From Flaccisagitta enflata (taxonomy: Eukaryota): 64,000 nucleotides of DNA. The stretch is taken from positions 22,692,001-22,756,000 of the forward strand of contig OZ231126.1 in NCBI GenBank assembly GCA_965153355.1, read 5' to 3'. The position numbers were made by a program, and so were the translations under genes. Positions 1,686-56,510 of this stretch are shown in pieces. Below the pieces are notes generated by a model, which was not told the DNA's origin, did not search any database, and saw only the letters and a program-made list of their open reading frames with translations. How positions within the stretch are numbered: the stretch's first letter is position 1; every line of letters starts with the position of its first letter.

Positions 1686-2064
1686 GGGGCAGCGGCTCCG
1701 AAGGGACTGATGCCTTATGCATAGACGCAAGGGGAACCATGCAGCATTTTATTGTCCAATAGGGTAATAAGTTACGCAAGGCTGAGATTTGGGCCCTTAT
1801 GGAATTCGAACCCAGAAGCTTTGAGTAGCGCTTTGAGGCTGGGATTTGAGTCATAGGGCTGAGATTTGGGCCTCAAGACTGGGATTTTTGGCTTGAGATT
1901 GGAATTTTGGCCTCTGAGCTGGGATATATATGTTCTTTTAATTCGTCAGCAGAAAAGCGACAGATTCATACAAAATCACGTTCACATCCACAGAATAGGA
2001 AAAAAAAAAAAAGATATACATATAAATGGCAAAAAGTACAAGATTCAATAATAAATACGACGAG

Positions 2065-2115
<51 letters not shown>

Positions 2116-2817
2116 TAAGAAATGACCGGGTTATGATGTGAGAAGAGAGAAGCATCAAATTTTCGTCTTGTCTTATGAAAGATATCAGTCAATGCAAGAA
2201 AGCCGAATTGTTCACGCAAATTTCTGACGCTCTCCCAGCGATTGAAACCGAAGATGAATCTGAGTGCGTCATTTGTCGCTGTACAGCAGTCATGCATTTG
2301 ACGCGATGGATATTCTTTAACCGCACACGCATATGTAAGAATTGGTATGCAACATGAGAATAGTAAGTGCATCAGCACTTCCTCGCTTGGCTTATTTGCC
2401 GCTCGTAAGATGGCATTTGTTGCCCTGTAGAATTTTGCCAGATCGTTTGAAGAGGAAAACGAGAAACCTTTCTTATTAACAATGGTAGCACCTAGGTATG
2501 TGATTGATTCCGTGTATTCAATGGCACGACCGTTGAGAAGAATGGGACAAAGAGTGTCATAATCAATATTTTTCTTTGAAAATACAATTACAATGGGGTA
2601 TGGGGCTGGGTTTGGTATAATCTGGGCTTAGGGTCTAGGATGTGGGCCAGGGGTTTGGCTTTTAGGCCTCGAGGCTTGAATTTGGTCCTCAGGACTGGAA
2701 TTTGGGCCTCAAGGATGGAATTCGAGTGGAGAGGGTACGGCGGACGAAGAAGAAGAAGAAGAAGAAAAAGAAGAAGAAGAAGAAGAAGAAGAAGAAGAAG
2801 CAGAAGAAGAAGAAGAA

Positions 2818-7914: not shown

Positions 7915-9621
7915 TATTTTCATTTTTCCTTAATTTTTATATAGACAAGCATTATAGGGCATAACTACCAAGAGAATGATGCAAACATAAGAAAATCGGT
8001 GATGTCTGGAAACTTCATCGAATTTCTGAGCTAATGGCGCAAACCGCATTGCATTAAGTTTAGTCGTTAAGAAACTATAAGCAAAACAAAATTGCTACCC
8101 CAAGTAGAAAATGGCAAAAAAATAGCAAAACAAAATTGCTACCCCAAGTAGAAAATGGCAAAAAAATAGCATTTAAGAATTTCATAGTTCCAAGCGCAAC
8201 ATTGTCAGTTACAAACGAGCCTTTTTGTTCAGACCAGGGTGACAAGTTGCTGTCAAGTTGGCGTCGAGTTGGCGTCAAGTTGGCCTACAAGTTGTCCAGA
8301 CATCAATCCGATCAAATTGTCACTGAGTCAGAGGCAGAAGCTAAAGTTGTGGCTGCATGTCCAGGCTCAAGAGAATCATTTTCAAGGTGTAGAAGAACCT
8401 TACACTATCTTACATTCAATCACTTAATGGAAGCATGCCGGGGCTCTCAATAGCCATAGTTAATGCCCAGGAAGGTCGGACAAAATACTAGTTGTGTCTT
8501 ACAAATGTCTATAGTATTCAATGATGAATAAATGGACTGCATTAAATCTTGTCTATATACTTTTTAGCAAGATAGTACATTCTACATTCAGACAAAACTA
8601 GAATTAAACAATTCCTTCAATTTGTATATTACGGAGATGCCCACTTCAAACTGTCGGTATTTCTAAAGGATTAAAGCAACAACTTTGTGCTCCGTCTAGA
8701 TTTAAAGAACTTTCTTTTATTTTTTAAACGGTTACTGAATTTTAGCATTTTTCTACAAACCAAGCAGAAGAAAGCGATCAAAAAACGCCAATGGTTAGAC
8801 TATATGTATTGATGAAAATTTTACAACCCGGGTACAACCAATCAACACCAACACCTCAATCAATTTTTTTTTTCAATTCTCATTCTCAATATTTCATTTA
8901 TTAGACGGTTGCAAATCCACAATAGATTTCTAACGTCAATCAGTCAGTCCAGACCAACAATATTTCTCTGTCCTGTCTATATAACAATAACATTTATTCG
9001 TCGACAAGTGGATTGTGACAGAGCACACGACAACGCATCACATCAGTAGGGTAAAGGAGAGAAAAATAGATGGGAGAAAAAAAAAACAATAGCACTTCGC
9101 TGAACTTGATGGAAGTTTTCAATCGAATCAAAACAGAATTTCCAGTACGATTTAAACCATTTATGAAACTCTTACTTCTTTTGGCAAAGATTTCCGTAAT
9201 GGATACGTGACTTACGAAGTTCACAAGTGCTTTCCCATCGATGAAAACCAAAAAAATTTCTCATACAGTCGTTGAGAGCAACATTTGAAGTAGTCATGTC
9301 GCGTCCATTGTGTCGTTTTACTTCACAAGCATAAGTTAAGATAGGAACACAATTACTTTACTTCTTCACTCCGTCTGTTAAGTACATTCAATATCATGTT
9401 TGTGCTACAGTAAAATGACATCAAAGGTTTACGAATTGGAGTTTCAAATTTCTTGCCTGCTAAAAGATTCATACCAAGATATCTGTAGCTGTTTCAATGG
9501 GCGTACCGTTTAAGTACAGGCGTTCATGAGTTATGGTTTTTCCAAAGACTAAGATATTCGTTTTTGTCGGATTGAACGTGAGACACCAATCTAGACCGTA
9601 ATTTTGGCAAATGTCTAAGAG

Positions 9622-9781
9622 TTTTTAGTTGCGGACACGCAACTCTATAAGTGGCTTTGTCCGTCCGTCCGTCCGTCGGTTGGTCGGTCGGTCCGTCACG
9701 CTCAAGTTGAAAAGTGGAAAAACGCGCATTTCCGCTCCTGCCCACCCGTCCGCAACTGGTGGCCGTGTATCCGGCCTTGTT
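9622..9781 (+). mobile_element. Helentron/DINE-1-like non-autonomous element (family 1)
   Basis: TTTTTAGTTGCG...CGCAACT 5' end, (GTCC/GTCG)n core, 3' subterminal CGCAACT, terminal hairpin GGCCG-tgtatc-CGGCC then TTGTT. Confidence 0.75.
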
Positions 9782-10306
9782 GTACTGATTTTCGCGTAAG
9801 CGCCTATAGAGCTAAGTCATCAGCGTACAGTATCGCTGCTACAAGAAGTTCTTCTATTAAAGTCTGTTTTTCAAAGCCTTATGTCCATACCACAGGGTGT
9901 TTCACATTAAATTGCATGGAAGAGAACAACACTATTTACCAAGGTGATAAAAGGCCATGAATTCTAGAAAAAAAAACTTATATGAAAAATATTTTCATTT
10001 CTTCACAAAATGAATTTTTAAATCAATGTCAATATATCTTTGGCCTCTGAAATATTCTTAACATTAACCAGTAAAGAAACCTGACATTGTCAAAATTGAA
10101 ATCGTTCATATCTTTCTTCTAAATATTACTTAGTTGAACAAAATAGAATAGAATATAACATGGGAACATAATTGTTATTTTGAAAAATATATTCATTTTC
10201 AAAGAAGGGAACCAAAACTTTTTTACCTAATAGATGGAGTTATTTTCTTTAAAGTAATTTGATGTTGAACAGCCTGTATTGTCCTAATTGCCTTCGCGGT
10301 AAGCTA

Positions 10307-11092
10307 CTACTTGTTGATCACTGTCACTTTGCTGGTTCGGGTGTGCTCAACACTGCCCCCGGTCATGGTCACATTGACGCTTCCGCCACCCATGCCTTTC
10401 TCTAAAGCAATCAGATTCCTAGTTGTTTCGTCCTTCAGATCGCCTTCGATATAAAACTTGCTATTATCCTCTTTGCCAACTTTAACCCCAACTCGTTTGA
10501 CATTGATATCATTACGGCCGCTGCTTTCGTTACCATTCGCCATCTGCTCCATCTGCGTCTTAACAGCCTTCCTCAGGTCGTTGAAGCGTTGAAGCTGAAC
10601 CTCTGAGACGTCCTCCAACGGTTGCTCCGCAAACTTGGTGAGTCGGGAGCGGTATTCTTCGCAGTCCGCTCTCTTCATCGAAGACTTCGACGTCCATGTT
10701 TTGAGAATCTTCATCAACGTCTCGATGAGTCTATCGTAGTGGTCTTCAAAGTCGTCATCGTCGAAAGCGGTGAAGTCGTCCTCGCACAACTTGGTCATCG
10801 CTTTCAAATACTTTTGAAGACATTTCCCCATTTCTTCCGAGTGGTCGAGACATTGCATGACGCCGTGAAGCTTGAAGGTGTCGGCTTCCATCAACGGTGG
10901 AGCCGCATTTGATGGAGATGGCGAAGCAAACAAGTAGTCGACTTGGTCATGATTCACTTTGTACCAACGTGGCCAATCTGTTTGCTTCGCCTCGAGAAAT
11001 TTCTCGTGAGCGACGCGTAGCACTTCCGCCCCTTCATCTAGCAAGAGTAGGCCGTAGATAACGCCTCTCTTGTCGTCGTCTGACAAAGGCAT
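10307..11092 (-). CDS. 261-aa protein; putative degenerate DZIP3-like HEPN domain plus Gly/Val/Thr-rich RHIM-like C-terminal tail
   Basis: Long non-repetitive ORF, GC-richer than its flanks. Polypyrimidine tract and AG acceptor (ctctctcttgttag|) 12 nt upstream of the ATG. Motifs LLLLDEGAEVLR / NHDQVDYLF / EADTFKL / FDDDDFEDHYDRLIETL recall HEPN_DZIP3; the domain call is tentative. Confidence 0.75.
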   Translation of the reverse strand: MPLSDDDKRGVIYGLLLLDEGAEVLRVAHEKFLEAKQTDWPRWYKVNHDQVDYLFASPSPSNAAPPLMEADTFKLHGVMQCLDHSEEMGKCLQKYLKAMTKLCEDDFTAFDDDDFEDHYDRLIETLMKILKTWTSKSSMKRADCEEYRSRLTKFAEQPLEDVSEVQLQRFNDLRKAVKTQMEQMANGNESSGRNDINVKRVGVKVGKEDNSKFYIEGDLKDETTRNLIALEKGMGGGSVNVTMTGGSVEHTRTSKVTVINK

Positions 11093-11243
11093 CTTCCGAT
11101 TTCACTAACAAGAGAGAGAGAGGGATTGAAATTTTTACAGTATGGGAAAACGAGAATGGTTGATTTTACATTTCGAGCTAAAAAGGCTCTTTGCCTCACA
11201 TTATACATTTTCCGTTGCTGTAAATGTGTAAGTACAAATACCA

Positions 11244-11860
11244 TATGTCATGGTGTACAGGAACAGGAAATTTTGGTTTCATATTACTCTTTGCTTTTGA
11301 TATAGATCTAAAATCTAAAGATATTGTTTTGATTTCAGATAAGTGTTTTTGTTATAATGTATAAGGTGTTTTAACAATGTTTTAAAACCCAGAATACTGA
11401 CTATAGTTTCATGATGATCAGTAATAAAAATGAAAGTTCAAATTCTTTAGAAAAATAGTGAACAAAATTTTAAAATGTTGTTAGGTGAAATTATATCACG
11501 GCCTCCGTAAAGACAATTTTGCATTTCTAAGAACATGGCCCTTTTCTTATATGTTTTTAAAAAGAAGCTATGTTTTTGGAAATGCAAATTTCGTTATTTC
11601 TATGCAATGATATAATTTCACCTAACAAAAGTGAGATGACAAAATATAATGTTCTGTAAAAAATCTTGTTTTTTCTACTTTATTTCAATACATTATGCAC
11701 ATCAAATCTGTATGTCAGAGAGTATCTATGCAAAAATTTATTGTTCAACATTTAAAAAATGTTTTTTGACAAAAAAAAAAATTGTAAAAAAACAATAAAA
11801 AAGATATTCAAAAAATTGTTTTGACGCATGAAATTTCTTCTTCCTGTACACTGCGTCATA
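11244..11860. mobile_element. MITE with imperfect TIRs and an internal inverted repeat
   Basis: TATGTCATGGTGTACAGGAACAGGAAATTT versus the reverse complement of AAATTTCTTCTTCCTGTACACTGCGTCATA; internal IR TTGTTAGGTGAAATTATATCA / TGATATAATTTCACCTAACAA (about 11478-11628). Confidence 0.55.
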
Positions 11861-12953
11861 TCTAATCTTTCCTAAGTGAGCACCGATAATGTGTAGCGCC
11901 AAGCTTTCAAACCTACAAGAAACAAATAAGCCGGTGTTACAATTTCGTTGCGGACAAGGGGGGGGGGGTGGAAAGGTGCGTGAATGGACGTTTTTCCGTC
12001 ACGGACCCACGTACCCGCGTTCGAACCATAGATGGACCTACAGACGAAAAATACCACTCATAGAGATGCGATTCCGCGACTAAACAGAAGCGAGTGGTGA
12101 TTGTAACTTTTTTAAAAACAAAGCTCTTGGGTCTGCACTGCGCTGTTAATGAAATGATTTATCTCCAAACGGAAGCCTCTCGGGACATGCTGACAGACCT
12201 ATCGACGAATGAGTCAACAAAAGAGTCGCCAGTTTAAAAACGTTTAAAAAAGGAAATTTAAGAAGAAAGTCTTCGTGATAATGCTGTTGATAGAAATCAT
12301 AAGCATGGTTAAGAATTAGGCGGCTTGCATAATTGTTTCTTTTTATATTTGTGTACACGATCATCATCATCAACTTTTTCTTCTTTTTTTTTTCAACAAT
12401 CTTTTTCTGTGCTCTACGATCAATATTTCTTCGATCAAAAATTTGTATCTTTAAATCTACACATTGATTTTTAACCTTTCAATAAAAACCGTTAACTTCG
12501 CCGTCCGGATGGAAAACCCAAGATAAGCCGAAGCCGTAGACGAGACATGCAAGCCCAGCCGAGAGACCTGACGATTTCAATCAGGAAGTTTAAGAAACCT
12601 GAAATGAGTTAAGTATACAACATCATCAGCCTATCCGGTATTCGCGCGCTTTATTCATTTCATCTCATATCAACATTCATACATGACAAGATTTAGCTAC
12701 AAAATTAAACTCATTCATAATTTCATTATTAAAAAATCGGACAATATAATTGTAAAATTACTGACACATAATCATTAGCTAACTTAAGGAAAAAGACATA
12801 ATCGACAGATGGAACGATCTGTAAGCCGAATGACGTACCAACCTATAGAATCGCATATTAACACTGGATGGAGTGTCTTCTAATTGCGTGCTTTGTTGTT
12901 AGTCAGGTAATCCCGACTCTCATCAAGAGACAAAGAAATGAAAACATTCTTAC

Positions 12954-16862: not shown

Positions 16863-18619
16863 TATTTTCAAAGAGTCAATTTATGATTATCAAACTGCTT
16901 CTGCACTAAACATACCCACGTGATTATCTCAGGTTCAGAACGACTGCAATCAAAGAACGTTCGAAAGCTCAAATGAATAGGTGACGTCATAGAGTCAGTT
17001 GGAGGCTATAAGATGAAGGTAAAAAAACACGCCCGAGTAGGCCAACAATGCGCCCTCTATGAATGAGCGTTTTTCATGAATGAAAGTTTTTATAAGTGAA
17101 TTTTGTTGGTGAATGATAATTGGTATTGCTTTTTGAAGAAAAAGCCTTGGACCAACCAACCATCCAACTGACCGATGGACACGACCTCTTATGTCAGGAT
17201 GCAAACGAAGAGAAAATTTGATTTTCAGTCACAATAAACTGTTATATATAGTTATCCTAATATGTAATAAGTTTTGAAATAAAGGTTGAAATAAACATAG
17301 AAATAAAAAAAAGCTTCTTTGTATATTCATAAAGATCAAAGTTTTTCAATAAAATAAAAAAAAAATTCAGAAAGTTATTAGGTAAAATTATGATTTTGCT
17401 TTTGAATGCAAAATTTTGCATTTTAAAACACATAGCCCTCATCTTATGAGTTTTTTAAAAAACGCCATGTTTTAGAAAATGACAATTTTTGAATCTCTAT
17501 GCAATGTTATAATTCAATTTAAGACAAATTTTTTTTTGTATTACCTTTATCTTTACATTCCAAGTTACTTTGGATACAAAAATAGTTTTTAATGCAAAAT
17601 AGTTTAAACATAAACTAATCATCATTTTTTATTAATGAATTTTGAAAATTAACAATGTTTATGATATTGCAAAAAATGTGTTGACTGATCAAAGTTTGTC
17701 TTCGATTGCACCCTGACTTATAGAGATGCGAGGACGCATCTAATAAGTGATTACCCAAGTTCTGCACGCACATCTCTAGAAATCCACCTAAAAGAATTTC
17801 AGGCCTGTATACAGTTGCAAATTTTATAATGCTCAACAGAGGAGCTGCATACTATTTTATAATCATATCATTAAAACAAGAGAATGAAATGATTAATGAA
17901 ACAAGGCACGGACAGTTGGGCAAGAGCAGTAATGCAAAGATTGAACGCAATTCAGAAATGTTACTGACGGACGGATGGACCGACACGGCAAGGTGTAGAG
18001 TCGTGTGTCCGCGACTAAAAATAGATGAATGTTTGACAAATAATTGAGAATAAAATTGAATTGGTAAAGAATTCAAATAATCTATTTTGCAAGAGATGTG
18101 ATAATGCACAAAAAACTTAAGGTCAAAAATAGTTTAAAAAAACTGCAATTATTCATATTTCCACTCATACGAGAGAGTGCAAGCAGAGCATGCGGCTAGC
18201 ATAGCTTGTTTACAAAGGCACGCTCTATTTTCAGGACTGCTTAGCCAGCTATTTTTGAAAAAAAAAAAATACAGAACCAAAAGATATAACATTTTATTAA
18301 CCAAATGAAAAAATACTCCAGTCTCCAGTCATTGATCATTCATGACTCTTTTCAAAGTGACTGTGAATTGGTTCTCAAATCAATCAGATTATTAATAAAC
18401 AAGCTTGATCATCACAGATTAATCCCGATCGCATCATTCAAAAACCACAAGGGAAAAAGACTAGTGACGTCTTTGCGTCGACGCAACTCAAGGACGAAGG
18501 TGAGAAGGGAAAAAATAATGATAGGGCCATATGCAAACATGTTGACAACAAGGCTATAAACACTCTCCCCTTCCCTCCCTTCCCCCATCGCGGACTGGTT
18601 GGCAAGAGCGGAAGACCAT

Positions 18620-18767
18620 AACAAGGCTGGATACACGGCAGGACAGTCTCGGACGGTTGGGCAGGAGCAGTAATGCAAAAACCGCTCGCAATTCAGAAAT
18701 GTGACGGACCGACCGACGGACTGACCGACACGGCAAGGTGTCGAGTTGCGTGTCCGCGACTAAAAAA
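18620..18767 (-). mobile_element. Helentron/DINE-1-like element (family 1)
   Basis: AACAAGGCTGGATACACGGC ... CGCGACTAAAAA, the reverse complement of the family consensus. Confidence 0.75.
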
Positions 18768-20268
18768 TGACATTGTGACGTGATGGACCAATGAACAGAT
18801 CGAGCGACACAGCAACGTTACAAAAAGACGCAACCCAAAACCCTGCAATTTAAGCCCGGCGTCAATTTCTCTTATTTAGTTGCATACTAGTGTCTCTTCA
18901 AGGGATTGTGATTTACGCTGTAAACGAGTGCATAAAGGGAGCGATTACGATCGTTGTCAGTTGAAACACGCCTTTTGCCTACTCGTGAATGAACTTTGAC
19001 CAGAGCAGGGGGAATGACAAATAGACTTAAATGGACAAGTAGGCACTACCCGCCAGAACACGGAGTGAGTTGAGGTTGATTGATCATCCTTAACTATGAT
19101 GGTTTTTGGGTCATTGTGGTGTGTACAAAACAAATCTAAAAAAAACTAAAGGTCATTTCCACAATGAACCGGCCCAGCTGAAATTCATGATATAACAGGC
19201 AAAAAAATATTCTTTATTATACTAATATTTTTTTTCATGATGAAAGCTGTTGTAACACATTACTTGGGATCCAGTGTCTAGCTAATATCCTTCATACTTG
19301 AAATTTTTATTAGCTATGTAGCAAAACATAAGCCAAAATCACCCCTTTTTAGTCGCGTGCACGCGACTTTACAACCGCTTTGTCTGTCCATCCGTCCGTC
19401 AGTCCGTCACACTTTTACTTTTTTTTATCAATTCTTTTTTAAGTCATTCAAAGTCATTTAAAAGTATAGTGAGTCATTCTAAGTCATTCTAAGTTAATCT
19501 GTAAGTCTCACGCGACTTATAGGTGTTGGCCGTGTTTTATGTCACACTGGTGTCACACTCAAAACCACACATCAAAAAACTGTTAAGCATACCCAACTTT
19601 AAGTAATTTTTGTTTAAATGCAATCCTTGAGGAAGAACTAAAGATTTGATGGTATCCAGTTGTCTTTTACTAGAGAAAAATTTCACTTACAGTTGATATG
19701 TCCAAAATGATGATTTTTCTGATTTAGATATATACGTATACTATACTTTAAAGGGCAATATCTTAGATATTATTGAAAATTTCTTTTTTCCCCCCTTTAG
19801 TACAGACATATGTTACATGCAAAATTTCAGACCTTATTGTCAATTCTAGCTGGAGATATTGATTTTTTAAAGGAGTGTCCTAATTTGTTAACACCCTGTT
19901 ACACTTTTGTTACTCTGATTATGATAGAAATTAACATAGTTGAATATATTTTGAGTATAAGAATATTCTTTTTTATATGATTTAAAAGAGTATCAAATTC
20001 TGAGAATACGGCTCAAATTTCAGGCTATTAGATGCAACCATCATAAAATCATAACATTTTTAACAATGTTAACAAATTCAGATTGCTTATTTCCGCCAGT
20101 CTAGATTATTGTGGAAATTGCCTAAATCACTTTTGGGGCGCTTTAAGAAATATTTGCAAAAAAGGTGTAAATTTAGTACATTTTTGATCATAACTCTTTG
20201 AGATGATCTTTTTTGGAACTAAATTTATACTATTTCTATAAATATATCAAATAAAGCTCGAAAAATGA

Positions 20269-20500
20269 TTTTTTAGTCGCGTGCTATGCGACTCTACACC
20301 CCGCTTTGTCGGTCTATCGGTCCGTCCGTCGGTCCGTCGGTCCGTCCGTCGGTCCGTCGGTCCGTCGGTCCGTCACACTTTACTTTTTCGGCGTTAATGG
20401 GGTTTTTGGCCTTACTGCTCCTGCCCAAATGCTCACTGACTTCAATTATGGCCCCTGCCCACCCGCACGCGACTGGGGTAGCCGTGTATCCGGCCTTGTT
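20269..20500 (+). mobile_element. Helentron/DINE-1-like element (family 1), well-preserved copy
   Basis: TTTTTAGTCGCGTGCTATGCGACT, (GTCGGTCC)n, CACGCGACTGGGGTAGCCGTGTATCCGGCCTTGTT. Confidence 0.8.
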
Positions 20501-20704
20501 TTTTTTAGATTTGTAATATACACATAATAAGGACTCAAAATCTATCAGAGTTACCAGTAATGGCGGCTGTCGCCGTGAGGAAAAAAGTCGTAAGCGTTGT
20601 TCACTTTTCACCAAGCTTTTGTTTTCAGTCATTGCAACTTTTTATTTGTTAGATCAAATTAAGAGCAATTGTATATAGTGGTTGCACTGAAAATCAGAGA
20701 AAAA

Positions 20705-21130
20705 TAGGACTGAGCCAAATGAGCTAGATGAGCTAAAATATTCAAAATCACTCAATTACGCAACCAGCTATGCTTACTGAGATGCTTTCTTATATTTGCA
20801 TGCTTAAATCAAAACATTTATTTATTCATCGGTTTTGAAATCAGAAAAAAAGAGCAAGCTTAATGAGCTAAATGAGCTAGAATATTTAAAAACACCCTCA
20901 CAGATGAGCAGCTCTGCTCACTGACATGCTTTCTTACAATTGCTTGCTTAAACATCTATCAATATATTTGCTTATTTATTGCATTTGAAATCGGAAGAAA
21001 AAAAAACTGAGCTAAGTGAGCTAAATGAGCTAAAATGCACAAAATCATCCTCACATATGAGCAGCTATGCTCATGAACATGTTTTTTTTGTATTTGCATG
21101 CTTAACCAAACTTAGATACACTCCTTTATT
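20705..21130. repeat. Three degenerate tandem units of about 150 bp (GAGCTAAATGAGCTAAAAT...); related copy at about 28680-28830
   Basis: Repeated 'gagctaaatgagcta...atgagcagct.tgct' blocks near 20712, 20865 and 21018. Confidence 0.6.
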
Positions 21131-25185: not shown

Positions 25186-26258
25186 AATGTCATTTGATTA
25201 TGTCATTTGAAAATGTCGTTTGATAATGTTGTTTGATAATGTCGTTTAATAATGTCGTTTAACAATGTCGTTTGACAATGTTGTTTGACAACGTTGTTTG
25301 ACAATGTCGTTTGGCAATGTCGTTTGACAATGTCGTTTGACAATGTCGTTTGACAATGCCGTTTTACAATGCCGTATTACAACGCCGCATTACAACGCCG
25401 TATTAAAACGCCGTATTACAATGCTGTATTACAACGCCGTATTACAACGCCGTATTACAACGCCGTATTACAACGCCGTGTTACAACGCCGTGTTACAAC
25501 GCCGTGTTACAACGCCGTAGTACAACGCCGTAGTACAACGCCGTATTACAACTCCGTAGTACAACGCCGTATTACAACTCTGTATTACAATTCCGTTTGA
25601 CAACGCCGTTTGACATCGCCGTTTGACAACGCCGTTTGATATCGCCGTTTGACAACGCCGTTTGACAACGCCGTTTGAGAACGCCGTTTGACAACGCCGT
25701 TTGACAACGCCGTTTGACAACGCCGTTTGACAACGCCGTTTGACAACGCCGTTTGACAACGCCGTTTGACAACGCCGTTTGACAATGTCGTTTGACAATG
25801 TCGTTTGACAATGTTGTTTGACAATGTCGTTTGACAATGTTGTTTGACAACGTTGTTTGACAATGTCGTTTGGCAATGTCGTTTGGCAATGTCGTTTGGC
25901 AATGTCGTTTGGCAATGTCGTTAGACAATGTCGTTTGACAATGTCGTTTGACAATGTTGTTTGACAACGCCATTTTACAACGCCGTATTACAACGCCGTG
26001 TTACAACGTCGTGTTACAACGCCGTGTTACAACGCCGTGTTACAACGCCGTGTAACAACGCCGTGTTATAACGCCGTAGTACAACGCCGTAGTACAACGC
26101 TGTAGTACAACGCCGTATTACAACTCCGTATTACAATTCCGTTTGACAACGCCGTTTGACATCGCCGTTTGACAACGCCGTTTGACAACGCCGTTTGACA
26201 ACGCCGTTTGACAACGCCGTTTGACAACGCCGTTTGACAACGCCGTTTGACAACGCCG
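25185..26258. repeat. 13-bp satellite (TTTGACAACGCCG and variants) with higher-order block structure
   Basis: Variants tttgacaatgtcg, tattacaacgccg and tttgacaacgccg arranged in ordered blocks. Confidence 0.95.
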
Positions 26259-29412: not shown

Positions 29413-30834
29413 GAGAGACAGAGAGAGAGAGAGAGCTACCGAAGGGAGAAAGACCTAAAAGAAAGAAGGAAAAAGATCTAAAGGGAACCTCGCCTGCCAA
29501 ATAAACCCCCGCCCACTTATTCTAGCCTAACAAGAGGATGGAATAAGGGGGGGGAGCCTGCGGTATAACTAACGCTAACTACAACAAGCTAATTACAACA
29601 AGCCCTAATCTGGGTCCTTATGATTTTTTGTCCCAATAAAAAGTAACTAGTAGATTGTCTAGTCGAAACATAAGACAATTAATTGTGTACGATCTTAGAA
29701 AAAAAAATCTTCCGGTACATTTTCATGTATATCTCAGGTTTGAATCAACCAATTCATACCAAAACCATATCAAAAATCTGGTGACATAATTGAAGCCCTT
29801 AAAATTTGCGAGAGATCTACGCAAACCGCAACCCTCTAGCTCTATATGATAAAAAGTTATTCAACTTTAAATGAAATACTTCAATTTTGCGTCTGCCATT
29901 TCTAGGCAAGCTTTCAATGAGATCACTTCACTGTTTTTTAAATTTCTTTTAAACACATTGAGCTAGACAGATGCAGTTTGCGTAGACTGCTTGCAAATTT
30001 GAAGGGCTTCATTTTGGTCACCATTTTTTGTATGATTTGATGAGTCTTTTGGTAGCTGTGAGTGTGAATATAGCGGAAGAATAGATGAAAAAAGATAATG
30101 AGAAAGATCTGGAGACCCATCATCTCAGAATACATCAAGAAGCTCTACGAATCGCTTTCCCAACAAATGACGGTCCTGATTCAGTCGAAAGGATCTTATG
30201 CTAATTATTCATGGATTTGAAACTGATTTATATCTGTTTTTATGCAAATAAAGACGTTTTTATTGCATGGCGGAAGACTTTTCTTTAAGATAGTAGCTAA
30301 TTGAGTAAATGATATAACAAACTAGATTCCAAACTAAATTCAAAACGAAAAACAAACTAGATTCCAAACTAGATTCCAAACTAGATTCCAAACTAAATTC
30401 AAAACGAAAAACGCTTACTGAACATGTAAGCAAAAAAGAAAAAAGAAAAGAAAAAAAGACAGGTACATAACATCATTCATCACAACTATATGATATGTAT
30501 AAAATGAAACAATGTGAGAAAATCTTCTTTTGCCATCGCATTCATCACTCGAAACATAACAATCTGTGTTAGTGCCTTCAAAACGAATTGAGCTAAATGA
30601 AAACAATGCTCGATATTGCGAAAAATTTTGCGAATTAAATCAACATAAGTCCGACATCCAAGTATTACCATTGCCCTGCTCAGGGGGGGGGAGCGAAGAA
30701 GCACGACTTTTGACAGAGCTGATTTCCCCCAAATCGAAATTCATTATTCATGTCTGGTCCGAGGGAAGTAATTTACACGTTTACTCTGCGGTGTTATTGA
30801 GCTAACAAAGTTTTCAATGTTTTTTATCCAGTTC

Positions 30835-30982
30835 TTAGTCGCGGACACGCGACTCTACACCTTGCCGTGTCGGTCCGTCCGTCCGGCCGGCCGTCCGTGA
30901 CATTTTTGAATTGCGGGCGGTTTTCACAGTACCGCTCCTGCTCAACCGTCCGCGACTGGATTGCCGTGTATCCGGCCTCGTT
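30835..30982 (+). mobile_element. Helentron/DINE-1-like element (family 1)
   Basis: TTAGTCGCGGACACGCGACT ... CGCGACTGGATTGCCGTGTATCCGGCC. Confidence 0.75.
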
Positions 30983-31118
30983 TAGTTTTGTCAATCTCAA
31001 AATGCATCAAAGCAAAAAACCCATCGGACAAGATTTCTTGAAACATTTTTTTAAAATGATTGTAAAAAAGGAAATTCGGTGGGACATCAGAGAAATTTCA
31101 GATAACGTCTTGTCTACA

Positions 31119-31362: not shown

Positions 31363-32633
31363 TCACACAGAAGCACCGCCACGAAGAGTTGGCATTTCAA
31401 ACGCTTCATCGGGATTTTTCTCTTCCAACAAGAAATATTTGGGATTTCTAAACACGAAAAGTCCACAACCGATGAGAACCATCAATCCAAACAAAACTCC
31501 TATGATGATTACGGAAATCGAGTATTTGCGTCCCTCAACAACTGAAATCACGGGACATTTTTCGGCCGTTGAGACGAACAAGCTTCCACTTTGCGCGACT
31601 TCTTCATCCAATCGGGATGCCATTTGCATACGGAAGAAAAATCGAGAATTCTCGGCCTCTTTGAACTTCCTCTCGTTGGTGACTGAGACCACATCAGCGA
31701 TGATGCGTTTCTCCATCGGGCCGTTGCTGTCGCTGTTGCCGTTGTTGTTGCTGTTGCTGTTGCTGTTGCCGTTGCTGTCGCTGTCGCTGTCGCTGTTGCT
31801 GTTGTCGTTGCTGTCGCTATTGCTGCTCCATCGAAGAGACGTTTTGAGTCCCGTCTCCAGCTCGTTGTCTCGACTGCAAGATGAGTCGCAGTCCGGGAAG
31901 GTTTTGCTGATGTTGACGCAAGTTGCTTCGGTGACGCTCTCTGCGGTACTTCCGCTACCGCTTTCGCTTCCTCGATCGCCGGCATTAACGCTTCCTTTTC
32001 CGTGTCCATCTGCGTTGAAAAGCAATGTTTTACAGAGTGGCCGGCCTGATGGAATCACGCCGTGCAGAGGGAAAAAAGGCTGTATGTGTATAGTATGGGA
32101 TCACTGGTTTTCATTGCGCCACAGAAGTCAATGGCTAACAAATTCAATGAGAGCTCCATTGGTCCAATTTGTATTCATTGTTATCATCATTGTAAAATGG
32201 AGGTGGCACAACCGTGTAAGCTCTATCAATAATCATAGAACCCTTTAATGGTTACTATCTCTATAGATGTACATTCTGCGAGAGATCATAGATGTACATT
32301 CGGGGATAAGGCCACAAATTTACGCGACATCTTTGTTTCGTAATTGCCCTAACCTGTTTTACCTCTTTCGTTCCCACATGTTTGCAAGACAAACTGATAG
32401 TCTGGTATCGATCCCTTGACGATGACGACATCAAAGATGAGTCTCGCTTCGATCAGACAGATCCCATCTTCCGAATGTTTGACGTCGATGGACGGAGTTT
32501 TTTCCGTGGAATTCCGGCGCAAGATGACGGAAAATCCGCCGCTTGGCGAATCGGCGCTCCTTTGCGCCAGCGACGTTATGTGTAATAAAAGACAACTGAC
32601 TACGCCAATTCGTGATAGGAGCAACTTGGCCAT
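31363..32633 (-). CDS. 320-aa type I membrane glycoprotein (signal peptide, Cys-containing ectodomain with an SN/SD insert, TM helix, YxxL tail); exons 32633-32354 and 32045-31363
   Basis: Donor ACAG|GTTAG at 32354 and acceptor CCATCAG| at 32045 join in phase 1 (G|GC); 280+683=963 nt. N-terminal MAKLLLSRIGVVSCLLLHITSLA; TM ISVIIIGVLFGLMVLIGCGLFVF; tail RNPKYFLL... Confidence 0.8.
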
Positions 32634-32986
<353 letters not shown>

Positions 32987-35985
32987 AAGATATGTTTTTT
33001 TTTCTTGGGTTGTTTTTTATTCATTCATTTTTTTTGTTGTCGTTATTGCTAATGTTTATCTTTTTTGCATAGAAATCGGGGAGGAACTTTGAAAGAAAAG
33101 AAATGGAGCTACAGGCCCGCACCTGTGTCGACATGTGTTCCATAGAAAGATACAGTACCTTAAATGGAGAAACGAATTCGTCTTTTTTTCCTCCGTCGCG
33201 TCAATGATTGAGGAAAAAAAAAGTCTACTTACCATGCCCCTCGGGTATGTCGCCATTCTCACTTTCTTAGTCGGAAGTTTATACACCCTTTTACTCACGA
33301 CTAATTTAAATTCACTGAAAATTAGGGAAGGTTAACTATATAGTATATAGCAAAATTTCACAAAGGACTTTGCGAGAATTTGTCTTTTTTTTTAATCCTC
33401 AGCCAGAGCTAAGCTTTAATTCGAGCAGATTTGGGCTGTAATATCTAAAACCCAACCCGCCCCCAGCCCTAACACCAACCCTATCCCTTACCCTAAAACC
33501 ATCCTCAACCCCACCCATAATTCTAATAAAAAACGCTTAAAAGGACATCTTTTTGGATAGTACCTCAAAATACCATTTTCTTGGTTTGGTTCTCTTTACG
33601 GTTTAGATTGTAAATTTACTTTTGGCCTTGAGGGGGAAAAAACTCTTCTTTGTCGATCCAACGATTGTCAATTAAAGAAGACCAATTAAAAAAAAGTCAT
33701 ATTTCTTGTTTTTTATTTTAATTGGGTAAGAAAGATCAACCATGTAAAAAAAGTTTCCTAAGAGGAGTCGTAAAACAAAAAAAAAGAGTACTTGTCAGAA
33801 AAAAAACTTGTCTACGATGTACTATGACGTAAAATAGATCGAAAAGACGGCTTGAGGAAAAGTAACAAGTGACGCGGGGTCACAATATCGTTGCACACAC
33901 TCATAACTGCTGCATCATAAATGCGCGTTTTCACACTTTTCGAATTGATCACCACGGACCGACGGACGAAACGACGGATGGACAAAGCCTCTTTTAGAGT
34001 AGCATGTCTGAAACCAAAAAAACAAGGCCAAGTAGGATAATAAGGTGCGACGTGTGGATCGTTGAATGAATGCGTTACCAACAGACAGACCGACCAACCG
34101 ACCAACCAACCAACGGACACAGCCAGTTATAGAGGTGCTTTGTCGCACCTAAAAAGCCAATATTAAGCCGACGCGCGCGACGCAGGTCTAGGTTAATGTC
34201 ATGGAAAAGGGTCCGTGGACGGAGTGAAATCCATCAATTTTAAAATGTTGAAATTGAACAAAACCATACATCATCATGTAGCTAGCCTTATATCATGTAT
34301 GAATTGATACTTGGATTTTCTTATGTGAGCTCTTTTTTCATACAAATTAGGCCTAATTACACATTTTTTTTGCAAACGTACTAGGTAATAATAAATTTAG
34401 TTAAATACAATGAAGAAATCAATATGACAGTCAAATTCTTGATGAATATGTTCAAGCAATCATGTATGATCATGTTTCTGAATTTCTTAAAAAAGATTTG
34501 AGTTTTTTGAAAAAAAAAATCTCTATAAGTACCATTTCTGGCTGGGTGGGTTGTTGGAGAAAAAAATTTTTTTTCCAAGCTCTGTTTCATGCCAGTGACG
34601 AGGCATCTTTAACGGAAGCTTCATGCAAAATTTCAACCAGATCAGACAATTATTTCAAAAGTTATGCCCTTTTTTCAATTTTTTTTCTGGTAGGTTGGTT
34701 GGTCTGTCTGTACTCCTCGGCATTCTTTAAGACACACCAGAATATAGGTGTAGAACCCTCTTGATCTAGGTAACAACCATACAAAATTTCGTAGGGCTAG
34801 CTCAAATGGTTTTTGGGATAAGCCAATTTGAATTTTAAGAAATTTTACTAAATTGAGGCACAAAAGCATCGCGCCTTTGTGTGAGAAGCGCTGTGTGGAA
34901 ACAAAGAATTAACTACGAGGCTGCGTCGGCGAGCGTTACAATTCACTCCCTATTTCAGTACTGATCAACTTTGTATTTTCATTGTGACCAAACGAATTAG
35001 AGTTAAAACTTGAAATTTTAGGTGTAGGTACAGAATTTCACCATCTTTCTCATCATATAGATGAATTTTCCGTTAATCATGTTACTATGCCTTGACAGAG
35101 TATGAATCATAGTGTGACACAAGTGTGACACCACCAACAAGGAGCATCTTTGAATTGTAACGCTCTAGGAAAATGTTGATTTCTCCAAAATGAAATAGAA
35201 AAAATCCTTGAAATTTGGATGAAATGTTGTTCAACTAGTTGTAAATGCAATGACAAAAGAAAAAATGCTTAATGTTTGAACAATCGTAGGCTTACAAAAA
35301 AAACTGTCGGCTAATCTCATTTTGAGAAAAAAATGACAGAAAGATGAAGGGAAAGAGTATTATAATTTGCAGTCATTTTTTTTTTCGTCTCACAGTTGAG
35401 TTATTGTGTTCAAATTTTTTGCACATATCAATGGATGGATAGAGATGGCTTACAAGCTATGGGATGACTCTGCTTGACATTTTTTGATTGCTTAAACTAG
35501 CTTTTTGCTTACAGGGACAAAATCGGGACAGGCCAAAAAAGGCCCTCCTATCCCTGTTTTAGACCCCATAGGAGCAGTTAGAGGAGCAAAAATTGGTTTG
35601 GCATGGCGCACCAGGTAGTTAGGTATGTCACCCAACCTTTGTGACCTTATTCAATGCAGCAGCAGAAGCGATGACACTTCTACAATGGTGGAGAGTCAGG
35701 GTTTCTTGGGCGGACCCCGATGCGCGGAATTAACCTCTAATGACCTTGCTTAATGATAAGTCTGTCTTGATGGGTAACCTCAAATAATTGCTTATTACAT
35801 AGAGTATGGATGCCAAGTCAGAATGTGTAAATCGAGATGTATTATTAACATGTTAACGAAACAGAAAATTTCCGAGGAATACAGAGGAATGTAAACAACA
35901 ATAGGTTCATAAAACAGAGAAACTTGTTTTCCATCGATTCTCATCATCTCATAGCGAATGATAGGTGAAACAATATCCCTTACTA

Positions 35986-37094: not shown

Positions 37095-48783
<11,689 letters not shown>

Positions 48784-48895
48784 AATTGTGCAAAATCAAA
48801 TTCAGAGTTGGTGATTCTTTCTAGTTCCTTGCGTTTTTGTTTAATCTTTATAAATCGTCCACTGATAAGAGGGCGGAAAAACTTATCTTTGCCGG

Positions 48896-49408
<513 letters not shown>

Positions 49409-49672
49409 TGCGCGTGTGACCTGCAGTTTCATTTGGATTTGAACCGCGAGATTGATGAAATGATAAAGTGGAGATAACTAAACGACATGGTCACCAGTGA
49501 AACGTCGCTTGCTTTAAAGAAATATTTCATGCAGACGGACCGACTGACAGGGAAGGTAATCTCTAAGGAAATAACATAAGTAACATCAAATCAGATGTTC
49601 AAAACATACTCTCAAAGGAACAGAAAAGGATATTGTGGTACTGAGTCAGTCAGTCAGTACTACTGACAAATA

Positions 49673-55700: not shown

Positions 55701-55854
55701 ACACACACACAGATTCACACATTTTTACTCGAGCATAAGGAGGGACGGACCGACGGACCGACGGACCGACGGACGCGACTAAAAAAAACATAACTTAGGA
55801 AGACCTTTATTCCAGGTTAGTCACATTCAAATTTTAAAAGGCTTTTTCAACTCC

Positions 55855-55916
<62 letters not shown>

Positions 55917-56041
55917 AAATCTATTTTAACACTTTCCAACTCGAACAGAAGAACGGATGAACAAACGGACAATGATTCTTTTAGGGTCGCGAGTCCTCGT
56001 ATCAAAAGCTTTATATGATGATCATTGCCCTTCCAAAAATG

Positions 56042-56077
<36 letters not shown>

Positions 56078-56081
56078 ACGC

Positions 56082-56147
<66 letters not shown>

Positions 56148-56363
56148 CACACACACAAAACACACACACACACACACACGCACACAGAGGTGCACAAACG
56201 CAAGTACGAATGTAATGACATCAAGGGCGCATCCTGAAAAAAAGTCAGATAAAACTGATGATTGAGTCTCTCTGTCAATGAAATTCGGGTAAAATCGGGT
56301 TTGTGAACTTTTGACCCCATTGGCAGAGTGGATATGTGTACATCGATCGTTCACATTCCCCAG

Positions 56364-56510
<147 letters not shown>

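What the first reader, a model, noticed from the sequence alone, without database searches (positions are those of the whole stretch)
10307..11092. Stand-alone HEPN-like protein with a possible RHIM/amyloid tail
Seen: an intact 261-aa ORF with a splice acceptor just upstream. Residues about 8-135 show the spacing of DZIP3-like HEPN domains (LLLLDEGAEVLR ... NHDQVDYLF ... EADTFKLHGVMQ ... FDDDDFEDHYDRLIETL), but where the catalytic RxxxxH should be it reads KAMTKLCE. The C-terminus has INVKRVGVKVGKEDNSKFYI, resembling the RHIM pattern I-x4-G-[VI]-Q-[VI]-G-x2-N-x-M-x-I, then GGGSVNVTMTGGSVEHTRTSKVTVIN. Known: HEPN_DZIP3 domains occur as N-terminal effectors of invertebrate NLR-like proteins, and RHIMs are amyloid signalling motifs. 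Inference: a catalytically dead HEPN linked to an amyloid motif could be an undescribed innate-immune adaptor or decoy. This is the best novel-system candidate here, but it is speculative.
Basis: partly seen in the sequence, partly recalled or inferred. Interest (0 to 1): 0.75.

Follow-up and report, generated by a model that had tools for sequence, protein, structure and literature searches.

The report
Orphan HEPN-like protein with repeat tail
A real but very rare gene of a marine eukaryote encodes a helical, probably HEPN-like domain that lacks the RNase residues, joined to a conserved tail built from two similar 22-residue units; the tail is not a RHIM, and whether it forms amyloid is untested.

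Summary
The ORF exists, on the minus strand (10310-11092, 261 aa). It is a genuine, low-copy coding gene: GC 0.50 against 0.27-0.30 in the flanks, and 264 stop-free codons against at most 172 in shuffles. It has relatives at 28-46% identity. The family is tiny: 5 hits among 1.84 billion representatives, all unnamed marine contigs, and one of them is an allele-like variant.

- **N-terminal domain:** no Pfam HEPN model matches significantly, and HEPN_DZIP3 not at all. However, AlphaFold models of two family members both rank HEPN structures first (Csm6 Z 7.3 and 8.0, Swt1, HepS, MtlR). A language-model search also points to HEPN_DZIP3 clusters. The fold is therefore probably HEPN-like. No Rx4-6H is conserved, so it is not a canonical RNase.
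- **Tail:** this is the best-conserved part. It is an internal duplication (R1 196-217, R2 239-260; 13 of 5000 permutations reach the observed score) around a conserved, predicted helix.
- **RHIM:** the RHIM core G-phi-Q-phi-G reads G-V-K-V-G, with K invariant, and no RHIM or HET-s model matches.
- **Amyloid:** the HET-s-like layout is suggestive only.
- **Context:** no partner with the motif, no paralogue and no NACHT or death domain lies in the 64 kb.
- **Expression:** one polyA run shows no reads on the gene.

Verdict: a new variant of a known kind, of moderate interest.

The parts
10310..11092 (-). Complete coding sequence, 261 aa (P0001), in a single exon
   Evidence: Searches give the ORF.
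10307..10309 (-). Stop codon TAG, followed by a second in-frame TAG at 10304-10306
11105..11125 (-). Splice-acceptor-like polypyrimidine tract plus AG, ending 12 nt before the ATG. The 12 nt behind it begin with an in-frame TGA. Use as an acceptor is not shown.
   Evidence: No RNA reads cover it.
10688..11092 (-). Residues 1-135: all-helical core (helices 5-35, 40-55, 72-82, 86-104, 112-134). HEPN-like by fold, with no conserved Rx4-6H.
   Evidence: AF2 gives pLDDT about 70-88 here. VIA-align top hits are Csm6, Swt1 and HepS. The same holds for the P0004 model. Motif check.
10538..10687 (-). Residues 136-185: two long helices (141-155, 164-190) that link the core to the tail
10508..10537 (-). 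Residues 186-195: G/S/N-rich linker in front of the tail
10442..10507 (-). Residues 196-217: tail repeat unit R1 (phi-N-phi-x3-G-x-K-phi-G ... phi-x-G). It contains the RHIM-like G-V-K-V-G.
   Evidence: Regex hit. hhalign of R1 against R2. Permutation test, 13 of 5000. Unit HMM i-E 1.1e-10.
10379..10441 (-). Residues 218-238: conserved inter-repeat segment with a predicted helix (221-231) and a G-rich end
   Evidence: Invariant T, L, L, G, G columns in A2. The helix appears in both AF2 models.
10313..10378 (-). Residues 239-260: tail repeat unit R2 (phi-N-phi-x3-G-G-S-V ... phi-I-N). Residue 261 (10310-12) ends the protein.
   Evidence: i-E 2.4e-10.

Best explanation
This is a real, low-copy, lineage-restricted gene with an intronless coding region. 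It encodes a two-module protein.

**Module 1 (residues 1-135, extended by two long helices to about 185).** It is a helical bundle of the HEPN type that has lost, or never had, the Rx4-6H RNase dyad. It would therefore act by binding (RNA or a partner), like MtlR or the Swt1 HEPN, and not by cutting.

**Module 2 (residues 196-261).** It is an internally duplicated beta-rich unit-helix-unit module under the strongest constraint in the protein. I infer that it is a self-association module that brings the HEPN-like domains together; HEPN domains generally work as dimers (recalled).

**What is shown:** the gene, its conservation, the helical N-domain, the absence of the dyad, the internal repeat and the conserved linker.

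**What is inferred:** the HEPN fold (about 0.65), self-association of the tail, and any role in defence. Whether the assembly is a small folded oligomer or a cross-beta (amyloid) stack is open. I put the folded form ahead because the inter-repeat segment is conserved and predicted helical.
For: **The gene is real**
- Composition and ORF length exceed the shuffles.
- Five relatives were found among 1,835,955,588 representatives, two of them full-length with the same build.
- DNA depth over the ORF is 24-170, against 60-94 for single-copy contigs and 1e4-6e6 for the flanking repeats.

**The fold is HEPN-like**
- VIA-align against 48,161 chains ranks 4rgp_B Csm6 (Z 7.3, 114 aligned), 4pqz Swt1 C-domain (Z 6.9) and 9oik HepS (Z 6.5) first. 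At least 11 of the 50 rows are HEPN-type: 1wwp, AbiF, three MtlR/YggD, two more Csm6 and a HEPN toxin.
- The model of the 28%-identical P0004 again puts 4rgp_B first (Z 8.0), then HepS at Z 7.2. Rows titled 'HEPN domain protein' and 'HEPN toxin' also appear; 9 to 11 of 50 rows are HEPN-type.
- In the second look at Foldseek's list, HepS and MtlR come first and the globins fall to Z 3.1 or less.
- The nearest Atlas clusters carry HEPN_DZIP3, DUF4559 or HEPN_Swt1.
- There is a weak HEPN_AbiV hit at E 0.026 and 0.023.

**No dyad:**

**The tail**
- It has the highest identity to relatives: 44% to P0003 and to P0005 over the tail, against 28-29% over the full length.
- The repeat register is the same in all lineages.
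- The linker holds invariant columns and a helix in both models.

**Literature:** HEPN domains without the motif are read as non-catalytic binders (PMC3710099, passages).
Against: - No HEPN model reaches its Pfam cut-off: HEPN_AbiV scores 15 bits against 27.1, and HEPN_DZIP3 is not listed at all.
- Foldseek finds nothing at E <= 0.001.
- All Z-scores are at or below 8, which the tool itself says can arise from a common helical arrangement.
- The two models share one shallow 6-sequence alignment, and the P0004 model is poor, with mean pLDDT 53.5.
- The Atlas score of 0.84 is below the tool's 0.9 line.
- The tail is modelled with pLDDT under 50 and almost no strands, so its beta character rests on sequence pattern alone.
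- The polyA run of the organism gave zero depth over the ORF, with about 6% of the run read.
- Nothing links the gene to defence.
Confidence: 0.45

Rival explanations
1. HET-S-type amyloid signalling effector. The two tail units would form the two rungs of a beta-solenoid, templated by a receptor (for example an NLR) that carries one unit. Polymerisation would then switch on or cluster the N-terminal domain.
For: - There are two 22-residue pseudo-repeats with period 43 at the C-terminus of a helical effector-like domain.
- N and G are conserved at fixed unit positions, and hydrophobic residues alternate.
- The tail is unmodelled as a monomer.
- The architecture parallels HET-S (HeLo plus a prion-forming domain; PMC13506858, passages) and the double BASS motifs (bioRxiv 10.1101/2020.01.06.895854, passages).
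- Anecdotal like-with-like pairs occur at unit position 8 (V/T, R/I, Y/F, E/K), and a G/E swap occurs at position 13.
Against: - The linker between the units is conserved and predicted helical. Described double motifs have a variable P/G-rich linker.
- No Pfam HET-s, RHIM or sigma/PP model matches any of 4 tails at E up to 10.
- 29% of tail residues are charged.
- Within-protein R1-R2 matching is not better than permuted: 6 of 24 permutations reach the matched score.
- No further copy of the unit lies in 2052 ORF segments of the window.
- The tail-profile search among longer proteins found no other carrier: 2 of 8000 scored candidates passed, both already known.
Confidence: 0.18
2. Not HEPN and not defence-related. 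On this reading the protein is a lineage-specific helical-bundle or coiled-coil protein (BAR/THATCH/4-helix-bundle-like) with a small C-terminal domain, and its cellular role is unrelated to RNA or immunity.
For: - There are weak BAR and FCH hits (E 0.014-0.21).
- Many generic helical rows score within 1-2 Z units of the HEPN rows: acyl-CoA dehydrogenase C-domains, THATCH, designed bundles, BAR, ALIX.
- The profile's best PDB sequence hit is the Mx2 stalk, at E 0.0065.
- No defence gene lies nearby.
Against: - HEPN structures hold ranks 1-3 for P0001 and ranks 1 and 3 for P0004. They fill about a fifth of both lists although HEPN chains are, by my estimate, a small part of the library.
- An independent method also points to HEPN families.
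Confidence: 0.27
3. A non-functional or decaying ORF, or cargo of a mobile element. The open frame would be a leftover without present function.
For: - The polyA run gave zero depth.
- No AATAAA or ATTAAA lies within 610 nt downstream.
- The gene sits between very high-copy repeats and a reverse-transcriptase-like fragment at 9469-9624. That label comes from reading and was not tested.
Against: - The frame is intact in both haplotype-like variants: P0001, and P0002 at 95% identity.
- The tail is nearly invariant between them, with 2 conservative changes, while 11 of the 13 changes lie in residues 1-78.
- The distant relatives keep the same build.
- Depth is single-copy, unlike the repeats.
- GC3 is 0.61.
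- Short metatranscriptome contigs lie on it. X8 has a 151-nt contig with 1 difference, and X7 has a 237-nt contig with 7 differences. DNA carry-over is not excluded.
Confidence: 0.05

Closest known systems
Stand-alone DZIP3/hRUL138-like HEPN proteins (Pfam PF18738) of molluscs and cnidarians
   Same: - Size is similar: the nearest Atlas clusters are 201-252 aa.
- The build is a helical domain of HEPN type that stands alone. Such stand-alone proteins are abundant in the pearl oyster (PMC9646362, passages).
- The setting is a marine eukaryote.
   Different: - The PF18738 model does not match any of 6 family members.
- 194 of 202 oyster DZIP3-like HEPN proteins keep Rx4-6H. This family has no conserved R or H.
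- In the passages I read, none of the described architectures has this tail.
Non-catalytic HEPN domains: MtlR/YggD and the Swt1 C-terminal domain
   Same: - They are structural neighbours: 4pqz Z 6.9; 6kcr, 3brj and 3c8g Z 5.5-5.7.
- They too lack the dyad and are read as binders (PMC3710099).
   Different: - There is no sequence relationship.
- The partners and contexts differ: the mannitol operon for MtlR, a PIN fusion for Swt1.
- Neither has a C-terminal repeat module.
HET-S/HET-s of Podospora anserina (HeLo domain plus a two-repeat prion-forming domain)
   Same: - A helical N-terminal domain is followed by two short pseudo-repeats at the very C-terminus, separated by a linker of similar length. 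The repeat and loop lengths of HET-s are recalled, not taken from any call.
- The general description is in PMC13506858.
   Different: - The N-domain is HEPN-like, not HeLo.
- No HET-s model matches.
- The linker is conserved and helical.
- Amyloid formation is untested.
- No cognate NLR is known.
RHIM, cRHIM, PP and BASS3 amyloid motifs
   Same: - R1 holds a G-phi-x-phi-G core within a beta-prone stretch.
- The loose cRHIM string VxxG is present.
   Different: - The shared signature is G-phi-Q-phi-G. Here the middle residue is K in all 5 tails.
- R2 reads G-G-S-V at the same place.
- No RHIM model matches.
Bell-domain proteins with double BASS motifs in filamentous bacteria
   Same: A helical effector carries two copies of a short motif at its C-terminus.
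   Different: - These are bacterial and are paired with an adjacent NLR that carries the motif.
- Their inter-repeat region is variable and P/G-rich.
- No such partner lies in this window.

Membership tests
HEPN superfamily | Four-helix up-and-down HEPN fold | tested here: inconclusive
   HEPN structures rank first for two models: Csm6 at Z 7.3 and 8.0, Swt1 at 6.9, HepS at 6.5 and 7.2. All Z are at or below 8, the models share one 6-sequence alignment, and Foldseek finds nothing.
HEPN superfamily | Conserved Rx4-6H motif. It is present in most but not all families (PMC3710099). | tested here: not met
   The R-x4-6-H strings lie at three different alignment positions in the 4 proteins that carry the N-domain (P0001 and P0002 share one). 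No conserved H column exists.
HEPN superfamily | Match to a Pfam HEPN model above its gathering score | tested here: not met
   The best is HEPN_AbiV at 15.1-15.3 bits (E 0.023-0.026) against a cut-off of 27.1, and only in P0001 and P0002.
HEPN_DZIP3 (PF18738) | Match to the family model | tested here: not met
   It is not listed for any of 6 members at E up to 10. HMMER filters drop most matches above about 0.1, so a very weak similarity is not excluded. The Atlas lead scores 0.84, with PF18738 on 21-83% of cluster members.
HEPN_DZIP3 (PF18738) | Rx4-6H 'mostly conserved'; 194 of 202 in the pearl oyster | tested here: not met
RHIM / PP / BASS3 | Central G-phi-Q-phi-G signature (bioRxiv 10.1101/2020.01.06.895854) | tested here: not met
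   R1 reads G-[VT]-K-[VIM]-[GE], with K in 5 of 5 tails. R2 reads G-G-S-V-[EDG].
RHIM / PP / BASS3 | Match to the Pfam RHIM model | tested here: not met
   No family matched the window's tail. One unrelated weak hit appeared among the 4 tails. Nothing relevant appeared for the full proteins.
RHIM / PP / BASS3 | Forms cross-beta fibrils and heteromeric assemblies with partner motifs | not testable with these tools
   This needs a fibril or in-cell assay.
HET-s-type two-repeat prion-forming domain | Two pseudo-repeats of about 21 residues at the C-terminus of an effector protein | tested here: met
   The units are 196-217 and 239-260. hhalign gives P 0.0013 over 26 columns. In the profile permutation, 13 of 5000 reach the observed score. 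Single-sequence shuffles are significant only for P0005: 3 of 2000, against 137-429 of 2000 for the others.
HET-s-type two-repeat prion-forming domain | Variable, flexible linker between the repeats | tested here: not met
   The linker has invariant T, L, L, G, G columns and a helix in both models.
HET-s-type two-repeat prion-forming domain | The same motif on the N-terminus of an NLR encoded nearby | tested here: inconclusive
   No further unit lies in 2052 ORF segments of the 64 kb. No NACHT or NB-ARC was found in 145 ORF segments. The genome is not held, and eukaryotic partners need not be adjacent.
HET-s-type two-repeat prion-forming domain | Prion or amyloid behaviour | not testable with these tools
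   This needs experiment.

The most novel reading that the evidence does not exclude
The tail is a new family of amyloid signalling motif: a two-rung, HET-s-like beta-solenoid with an asparagine and glycine ladder. It sits on a HEPN-like effector in a marine non-fungal eukaryote. A receptor carrying a single unit would template it, and polymerisation would cluster the HEPN-like domains. This would be the first non-RHIM amyloid signalling module outside fungi and bacteria, and the first such module tied to a HEPN-type domain.
Probability: 0.15. Interest if true: 0.85.

Novelty: new variant of a known kind. Interest (0 to 1): 0.42.

Why it matters
HEPN domains are common effectors of invertebrate NLR-like immune proteins. 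Amyloid signalling outside fungi and bacteria is so far known only through RHIM-type motifs (passages of PMC12261475 and PMC13506858).

A dyad-less HEPN-like domain welded to a strongly conserved, internally duplicated beta module is an architecture I could not find described. The search 'HEPN' + 'amyloid signaling' returned 2 papers, and neither describes it; one I read in passages and the other I saw only in the listing.

If the tail self-assembles, it offers a small, testable model of proximity-driven control of a HEPN-type domain. If it is merely a folded dimerisation domain, this is an ordinary orphan protein of a poorly sampled marine lineage.

Tried and rejected
**Complex prediction.** Complex prediction with 4 copies of the 75-residue tail gave 'no answer'. 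The score was 0.00 twice, the alignment was not used and controls were not run. This is no evidence either way.

**Searches that found nothing useful**
- Atlas search with the tail alone: no usable hit.
- PDB sequence searches:
  - P0001: best is an alpha-glucosidase at E 0.029.
  - Profile A1: best is the Mx2 stalk at E 0.0065 and 19 bits, taken as helical or coiled-coil chance.
  - Tail profile A2: best is a fatty-acid synthase segment at E 0.49, on the linker helix only.
- PADLOC and NCBIfam: nothing relevant.
- Related-loci scans:
  - Metagenome contigs with P0001 and P0004: no relative.
  - Viral contigs with P0004, P0001 and P0005: no relative.
- Own genome: not held, so no paralogue or NLR census was possible.
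- Earlier findings of the scan: none.

**Hits rejected**
- Foldseek's globin rows (E about 1) fall to Z 3.1 or less in the second look.
- BAR and FCH hits are below cut-off.

**Tests that came out negative**
- Within-protein R1-R2 co-variation: 6 of 24 permutations reach the matched score, so it is not significant.
- A canonical polyA signal: none within 610 nt downstream.

**Other**
Full report
**What is there**

The finding's coordinates hold a stop-free frame of 264 codons on the minus strand. From the ATG at 11092 to codon 261 at 10310-10312 it encodes 261 residues, followed by two TAG stops.

Twelve bases upstream of the ATG ends a 21-nt polypyrimidine tract plus AG (11105-11125). The 12 bases between begin with an in-frame TGA, so the ATG is the start whether or not a 5' exon is spliced on. 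No AATAAA or ATTAAA follows within 610 nt.

**Is it a real gene?**

The evidence says yes.
- It is the only long ORF in the window that is not simple-repeat sequence.
- Thirty shuffles of the window gave stop-free runs of mean 146 and at most 172 codons.
- Its GC is 0.496 against 0.296 and 0.273 in the flanks, with GC3 0.61.
- In the DNA run X1 the two bins over the ORF have word depth 24 and 170. Long single contigs nearby have 60-94, and the flanking repeats 1e4 to 6e6. The gene is therefore low-copy and not a repeat.

X1 also holds a second haplotype-like form over 11025-11089, at 92 of 168 depth. Two of its changes (P2S, E23G), and T72A at 10879, are also differences of P0002. P0002 is 95% identical. 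It is therefore an allele-like variant of the same organism and not an independent lineage.

Of the 13 differences between P0001 and P0002, 11 lie in residues 1-78. The tail has two conservative I/V changes.

**Transcription**

This is the weak point.
- The polyA run of the organism (X11; 12.2 million records, about 6% of the run) has zero depth over 9802-11405.
- Two environmental RNA libraries hold short contigs on the gene.
  - X8 has a 151-nt contig at 10675-10825 with 1 difference.
  - X7 has a 237-nt contig at 10238-10474 with 7 differences, and a 329-nt contig at 9846-10174 with 12 differences.
- X7 also touches non-repeat intergenic bins, so DNA carry-over is not excluded.

**Size of the family**

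- A full HMMER pass over 1,835,955,588 representatives found 5 proteins at E <= 0.001:
  - P0002, the allele-like form.
  - P0004: 248 aa, full-length, 29% identity, E 4e-18.
  - P0003: 134 aa, tail region, 44% identity.
  - P0005: 80 aa, tail only, 44% identity.
  - P0006: 163 aa, N-domain only, 28% identity.
- All five are singleton clusters without names, on contigs of 539-1329 nt from ENA or JGI.
- Word-indexed searches added nothing.
  - Near lengths: 1 of 366 candidates.
  - Longer proteins: 0 of 2561.
  - Tail profile among proteins of 236-2000 aa: only P0002 and P0004 of 8000 scored.
- Scans of metagenome and viral contigs found no relative.
- No fused form (NACHT, death, TIR) was seen. 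The tools warn that this is weak evidence.

**N-terminal domain**

*Sequence models.* These do not place it.
- Pfam's best hits are HEPN_AbiV (E 0.026, 15 bits against a cut-off of 27) and BAR (E 0.048).
- HEPN_DZIP3 is absent for all six members.
- PDB, PADLOC and NCBIfam give nothing.

*AlphaFold model of P0001.* The model uses the 6-sequence alignment. It is helical from 5 to 190 with block pLDDT mostly 70-89 (three 10-residue blocks at 58-67), and below 50 from 188 on.
- Foldseek finds no match at E <= 0.001.
- VIA-align against 48,161 representative chains puts three HEPN structures on top:
  - Csm6 4rgp_B: Z 7.3, rmsd 3.6, 114 aligned.
  - Swt1 C-domain 4pqz: Z 6.9.
  - HepS 9oik: Z 6.5.
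- Further HEPN-type rows are 1wwp, AbiF, MtlR/YggD (three), Csm6 (two) and a HEPN toxin. That makes at least 11 of 50 rows. The HEPN assignment of 1wwp, MtlR, AbiF and Swt1 is from PMC3710099. That of Csm6 and HepS is recalled.

*Model of P0004.* Its mean pLDDT is 53.5.
- It again ranks 4rgp_B first (Z 8.0), and HepS at Z 7.2.
- It lists chains titled HEPN domain protein or HEPN toxin. In all, 9 to 11 of 50 rows are HEPN-type.

*Second look at Foldseek's list.* HepS and MtlR come first and the globins drop to Z 3.1 or less.

*Language-model search.* The nearest clusters carry HEPN_DZIP3 (21-83% of members), DUF4559 or HEPN_Swt1. The score of 0.84 is below the tool's trust line.

*Assessment.* No single line is significant. 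Z of 8 or less is common for helical bundles, as the tool says, and the two models share one shallow alignment. The lines do converge, and I put a HEPN-like fold at about 0.65.

*The dyad.* The Rx4-6H dyad is not there. Each protein that carries the N-domain has one such string, at residue 42 (P0001 and P0002), 37 (P0004) or 128 (P0006). These are three different alignment positions, and no H column is conserved. In the DZIP3-like family the motif is 'mostly conserved' and is present in 194 of 202 pearl-oyster proteins (PMC9646362, passages).

**The tail**

*Conservation.* Residues 196-261 are the best-conserved part of the protein.

R1 is 196-217 and R2 is 239-260, with period 43. The shared unit is phi-N-phi-x3-G-x-[KS]-phi-x6-[K]-x2-phi.
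- Pairwise shuffles are significant only for P0005: 3 of 2000, against 137 to 429 of 2000 for the others.
- The register is the same in all lineages.
- hhalign of the R1 block against the R2 block gives P 0.0013 over 26 columns, with probability 18.8%.
- In a column-permutation test of the two profiles, 13 of 5000 permutations reach the observed score. P0002 was dropped as near-identical.

*The segment between the units.* Residues 218-238 are conserved, with invariant T, L, L, G, G. They are predicted helical in both models.

*RHIM.* The tail is not a RHIM. RHIM, PP and BASS3 share G-phi-Q-phi-G (bioRxiv 10.1101/2020.01.06.895854, passages). Here the middle residue is K in all five tails, and R2 has G-G-S-V at that place. 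No RHIM, HET-s or sigma/PP model, and no solved structure, matches the tail. The loose cRHIM string VxxG (PMC13506858) is present but is too short to mean anything.

*Resemblance to HET-s.* The layout of two units of about 22 residues at the C-terminus behind a helical domain recalls HET-S and the double BASS motifs. The HET-s repeat and loop lengths are recalled. Three points speak against a signalling amyloid:
- The linker is conserved and helical.
- 29% of tail residues are charged.
- There is no excess of within-protein R1-R2 similarity: 6 of 24 permutations reach the matched score.

*Structure.* The low pLDDT of the tail is uninformative with so shallow an alignment.

**Surroundings**

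- HMMs of the repeat unit, of the whole tail and of the N-domain find only this ORF among 2052 ORF segments of 20 aa or more in six frames.
- I scanned 145 of the 158 ORF segments of 70 aa or more against Pfam. The 13 dropped were the ORF itself and 12 tandem-repeat frames.
- That scan shows only three exons of a PLP-dependent enzyme (minus strand, 38919-46524) and two low-complexity hits. There is no NACHT, NB-ARC, death-fold or TIR.
- The genome is not held.

**Mechanism**

*Best reading (0.45).* This is a two-module protein. A dyad-less HEPN-like domain binds rather than cuts, as proposed for MtlR and the Swt1 HEPN. A duplicated unit-helix-unit module at the C-terminus mediates self-association.
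- Shown: the gene, its conservation, the helical domain, the missing dyad, the repeat and the conserved linker.
- Inferred: the HEPN fold, self-association, and any role in defence.

*Rivals.*
- A HET-S-like amyloid effector (0.18).
- A non-HEPN helical protein with an unrelated role (0.27).
- A dead ORF (0.05).

**Comparison and novelty**

By fold, the protein resembles stand-alone DZIP3-like HEPN proteins and inactive HEPNs. By layout, it resembles HET-S. It passes the membership test of neither family: no model match, no dyad, no Q core, and a conserved linker.

I found no description of a HEPN-type domain joined to an amyloid signalling motif. The search 'HEPN' + 'amyloid signaling' gave 2 papers, and neither describes it. 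Passages of two amyloid-motif papers name only RHIM-type motifs for animals. Supplements were not consulted.

It is a new variant of a known kind: an orphan HEPN-like family with an undescribed, duplicated C-terminal module. Interest is moderate (0.42). The amyloid reading is kept as the novel case at 0.15.

Noticed in passing
window 9401-9801, 17421-17821, 18624-19826, 20228-21000: Very high-copy dispersed repeats. Word depth in DNA run X1 is 1.6e5 to 6.5e6, against under 100 for single-copy contigs, and these repeats also carry the only RNA reads of X11 in the stretch. Several translate to a recurring 'RPSV/GRSV'-type frame that is also seen at 11880-12080, 30801-31000 and 43820-44000. They look like a SINE-like or other short mobile element.
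   Followed up: partly
window 38919-39299, 43820-44359, 46300-46524 (minus strand): Three separated ORF segments match successive parts of the Pfam PALP profile (positions 156-202, 95-155, 54-96; E 5e-8 to 4e-6). They look like exons of a PLP-dependent enzyme gene (serine/threonine dehydratase or racemase type), with long introns, on the minus strand.
   Followed up: partly
window 1938-2627 and 9469-9624 (minus strand): By eye these ORF pieces look like the C-terminal part of a LINE-type reverse transcriptase. The 229-aa segment (1941-2627) gave no Pfam hit at E 0.001; the 51-aa piece at 9469-9624 was not scanned. The label is unverified.
   Followed up: no
window 32349-33072, 48760-49490, 55847-56726, 37803-38378: Long microsatellites and simple repeats give spurious ORFs of 150-236 aa in several frames: poly-T/poly-A runs of several hundred bases, GAAA-type repeats, and CA/GT and CT/GA dinucleotide runs.
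   Followed up: no
window 25481-25987 and 60998-61815: Two tandem-repeat arrays are open in several frames on both strands. They were not analysed with the tandem-repeat tool.
   Followed up: no
proteins P0005 (80 aa) and P0006 (163 aa), relatives from unnamed contigs: The two modules also turn up apart. P0005 is the tail alone behind 12 residues. P0006 is the N-domain alone with an unrelated end. They may be genuine separate genes, or cuts by contig ends or introns.
   Followed up: no
window 11025-11089 and 10879: There are seven single-base differences to the window. Six lie within 65 nt, at about half depth in DNA run X1. The seventh, at 10879, has the other letter at full depth (113.7 of 113.7). 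They give P2S, G14S, E23G and T72A plus three silent changes. This marks a strongly diverged second haplotype or a very recent paralogue, concentrated in the first 80 codons.
   Followed up: partly
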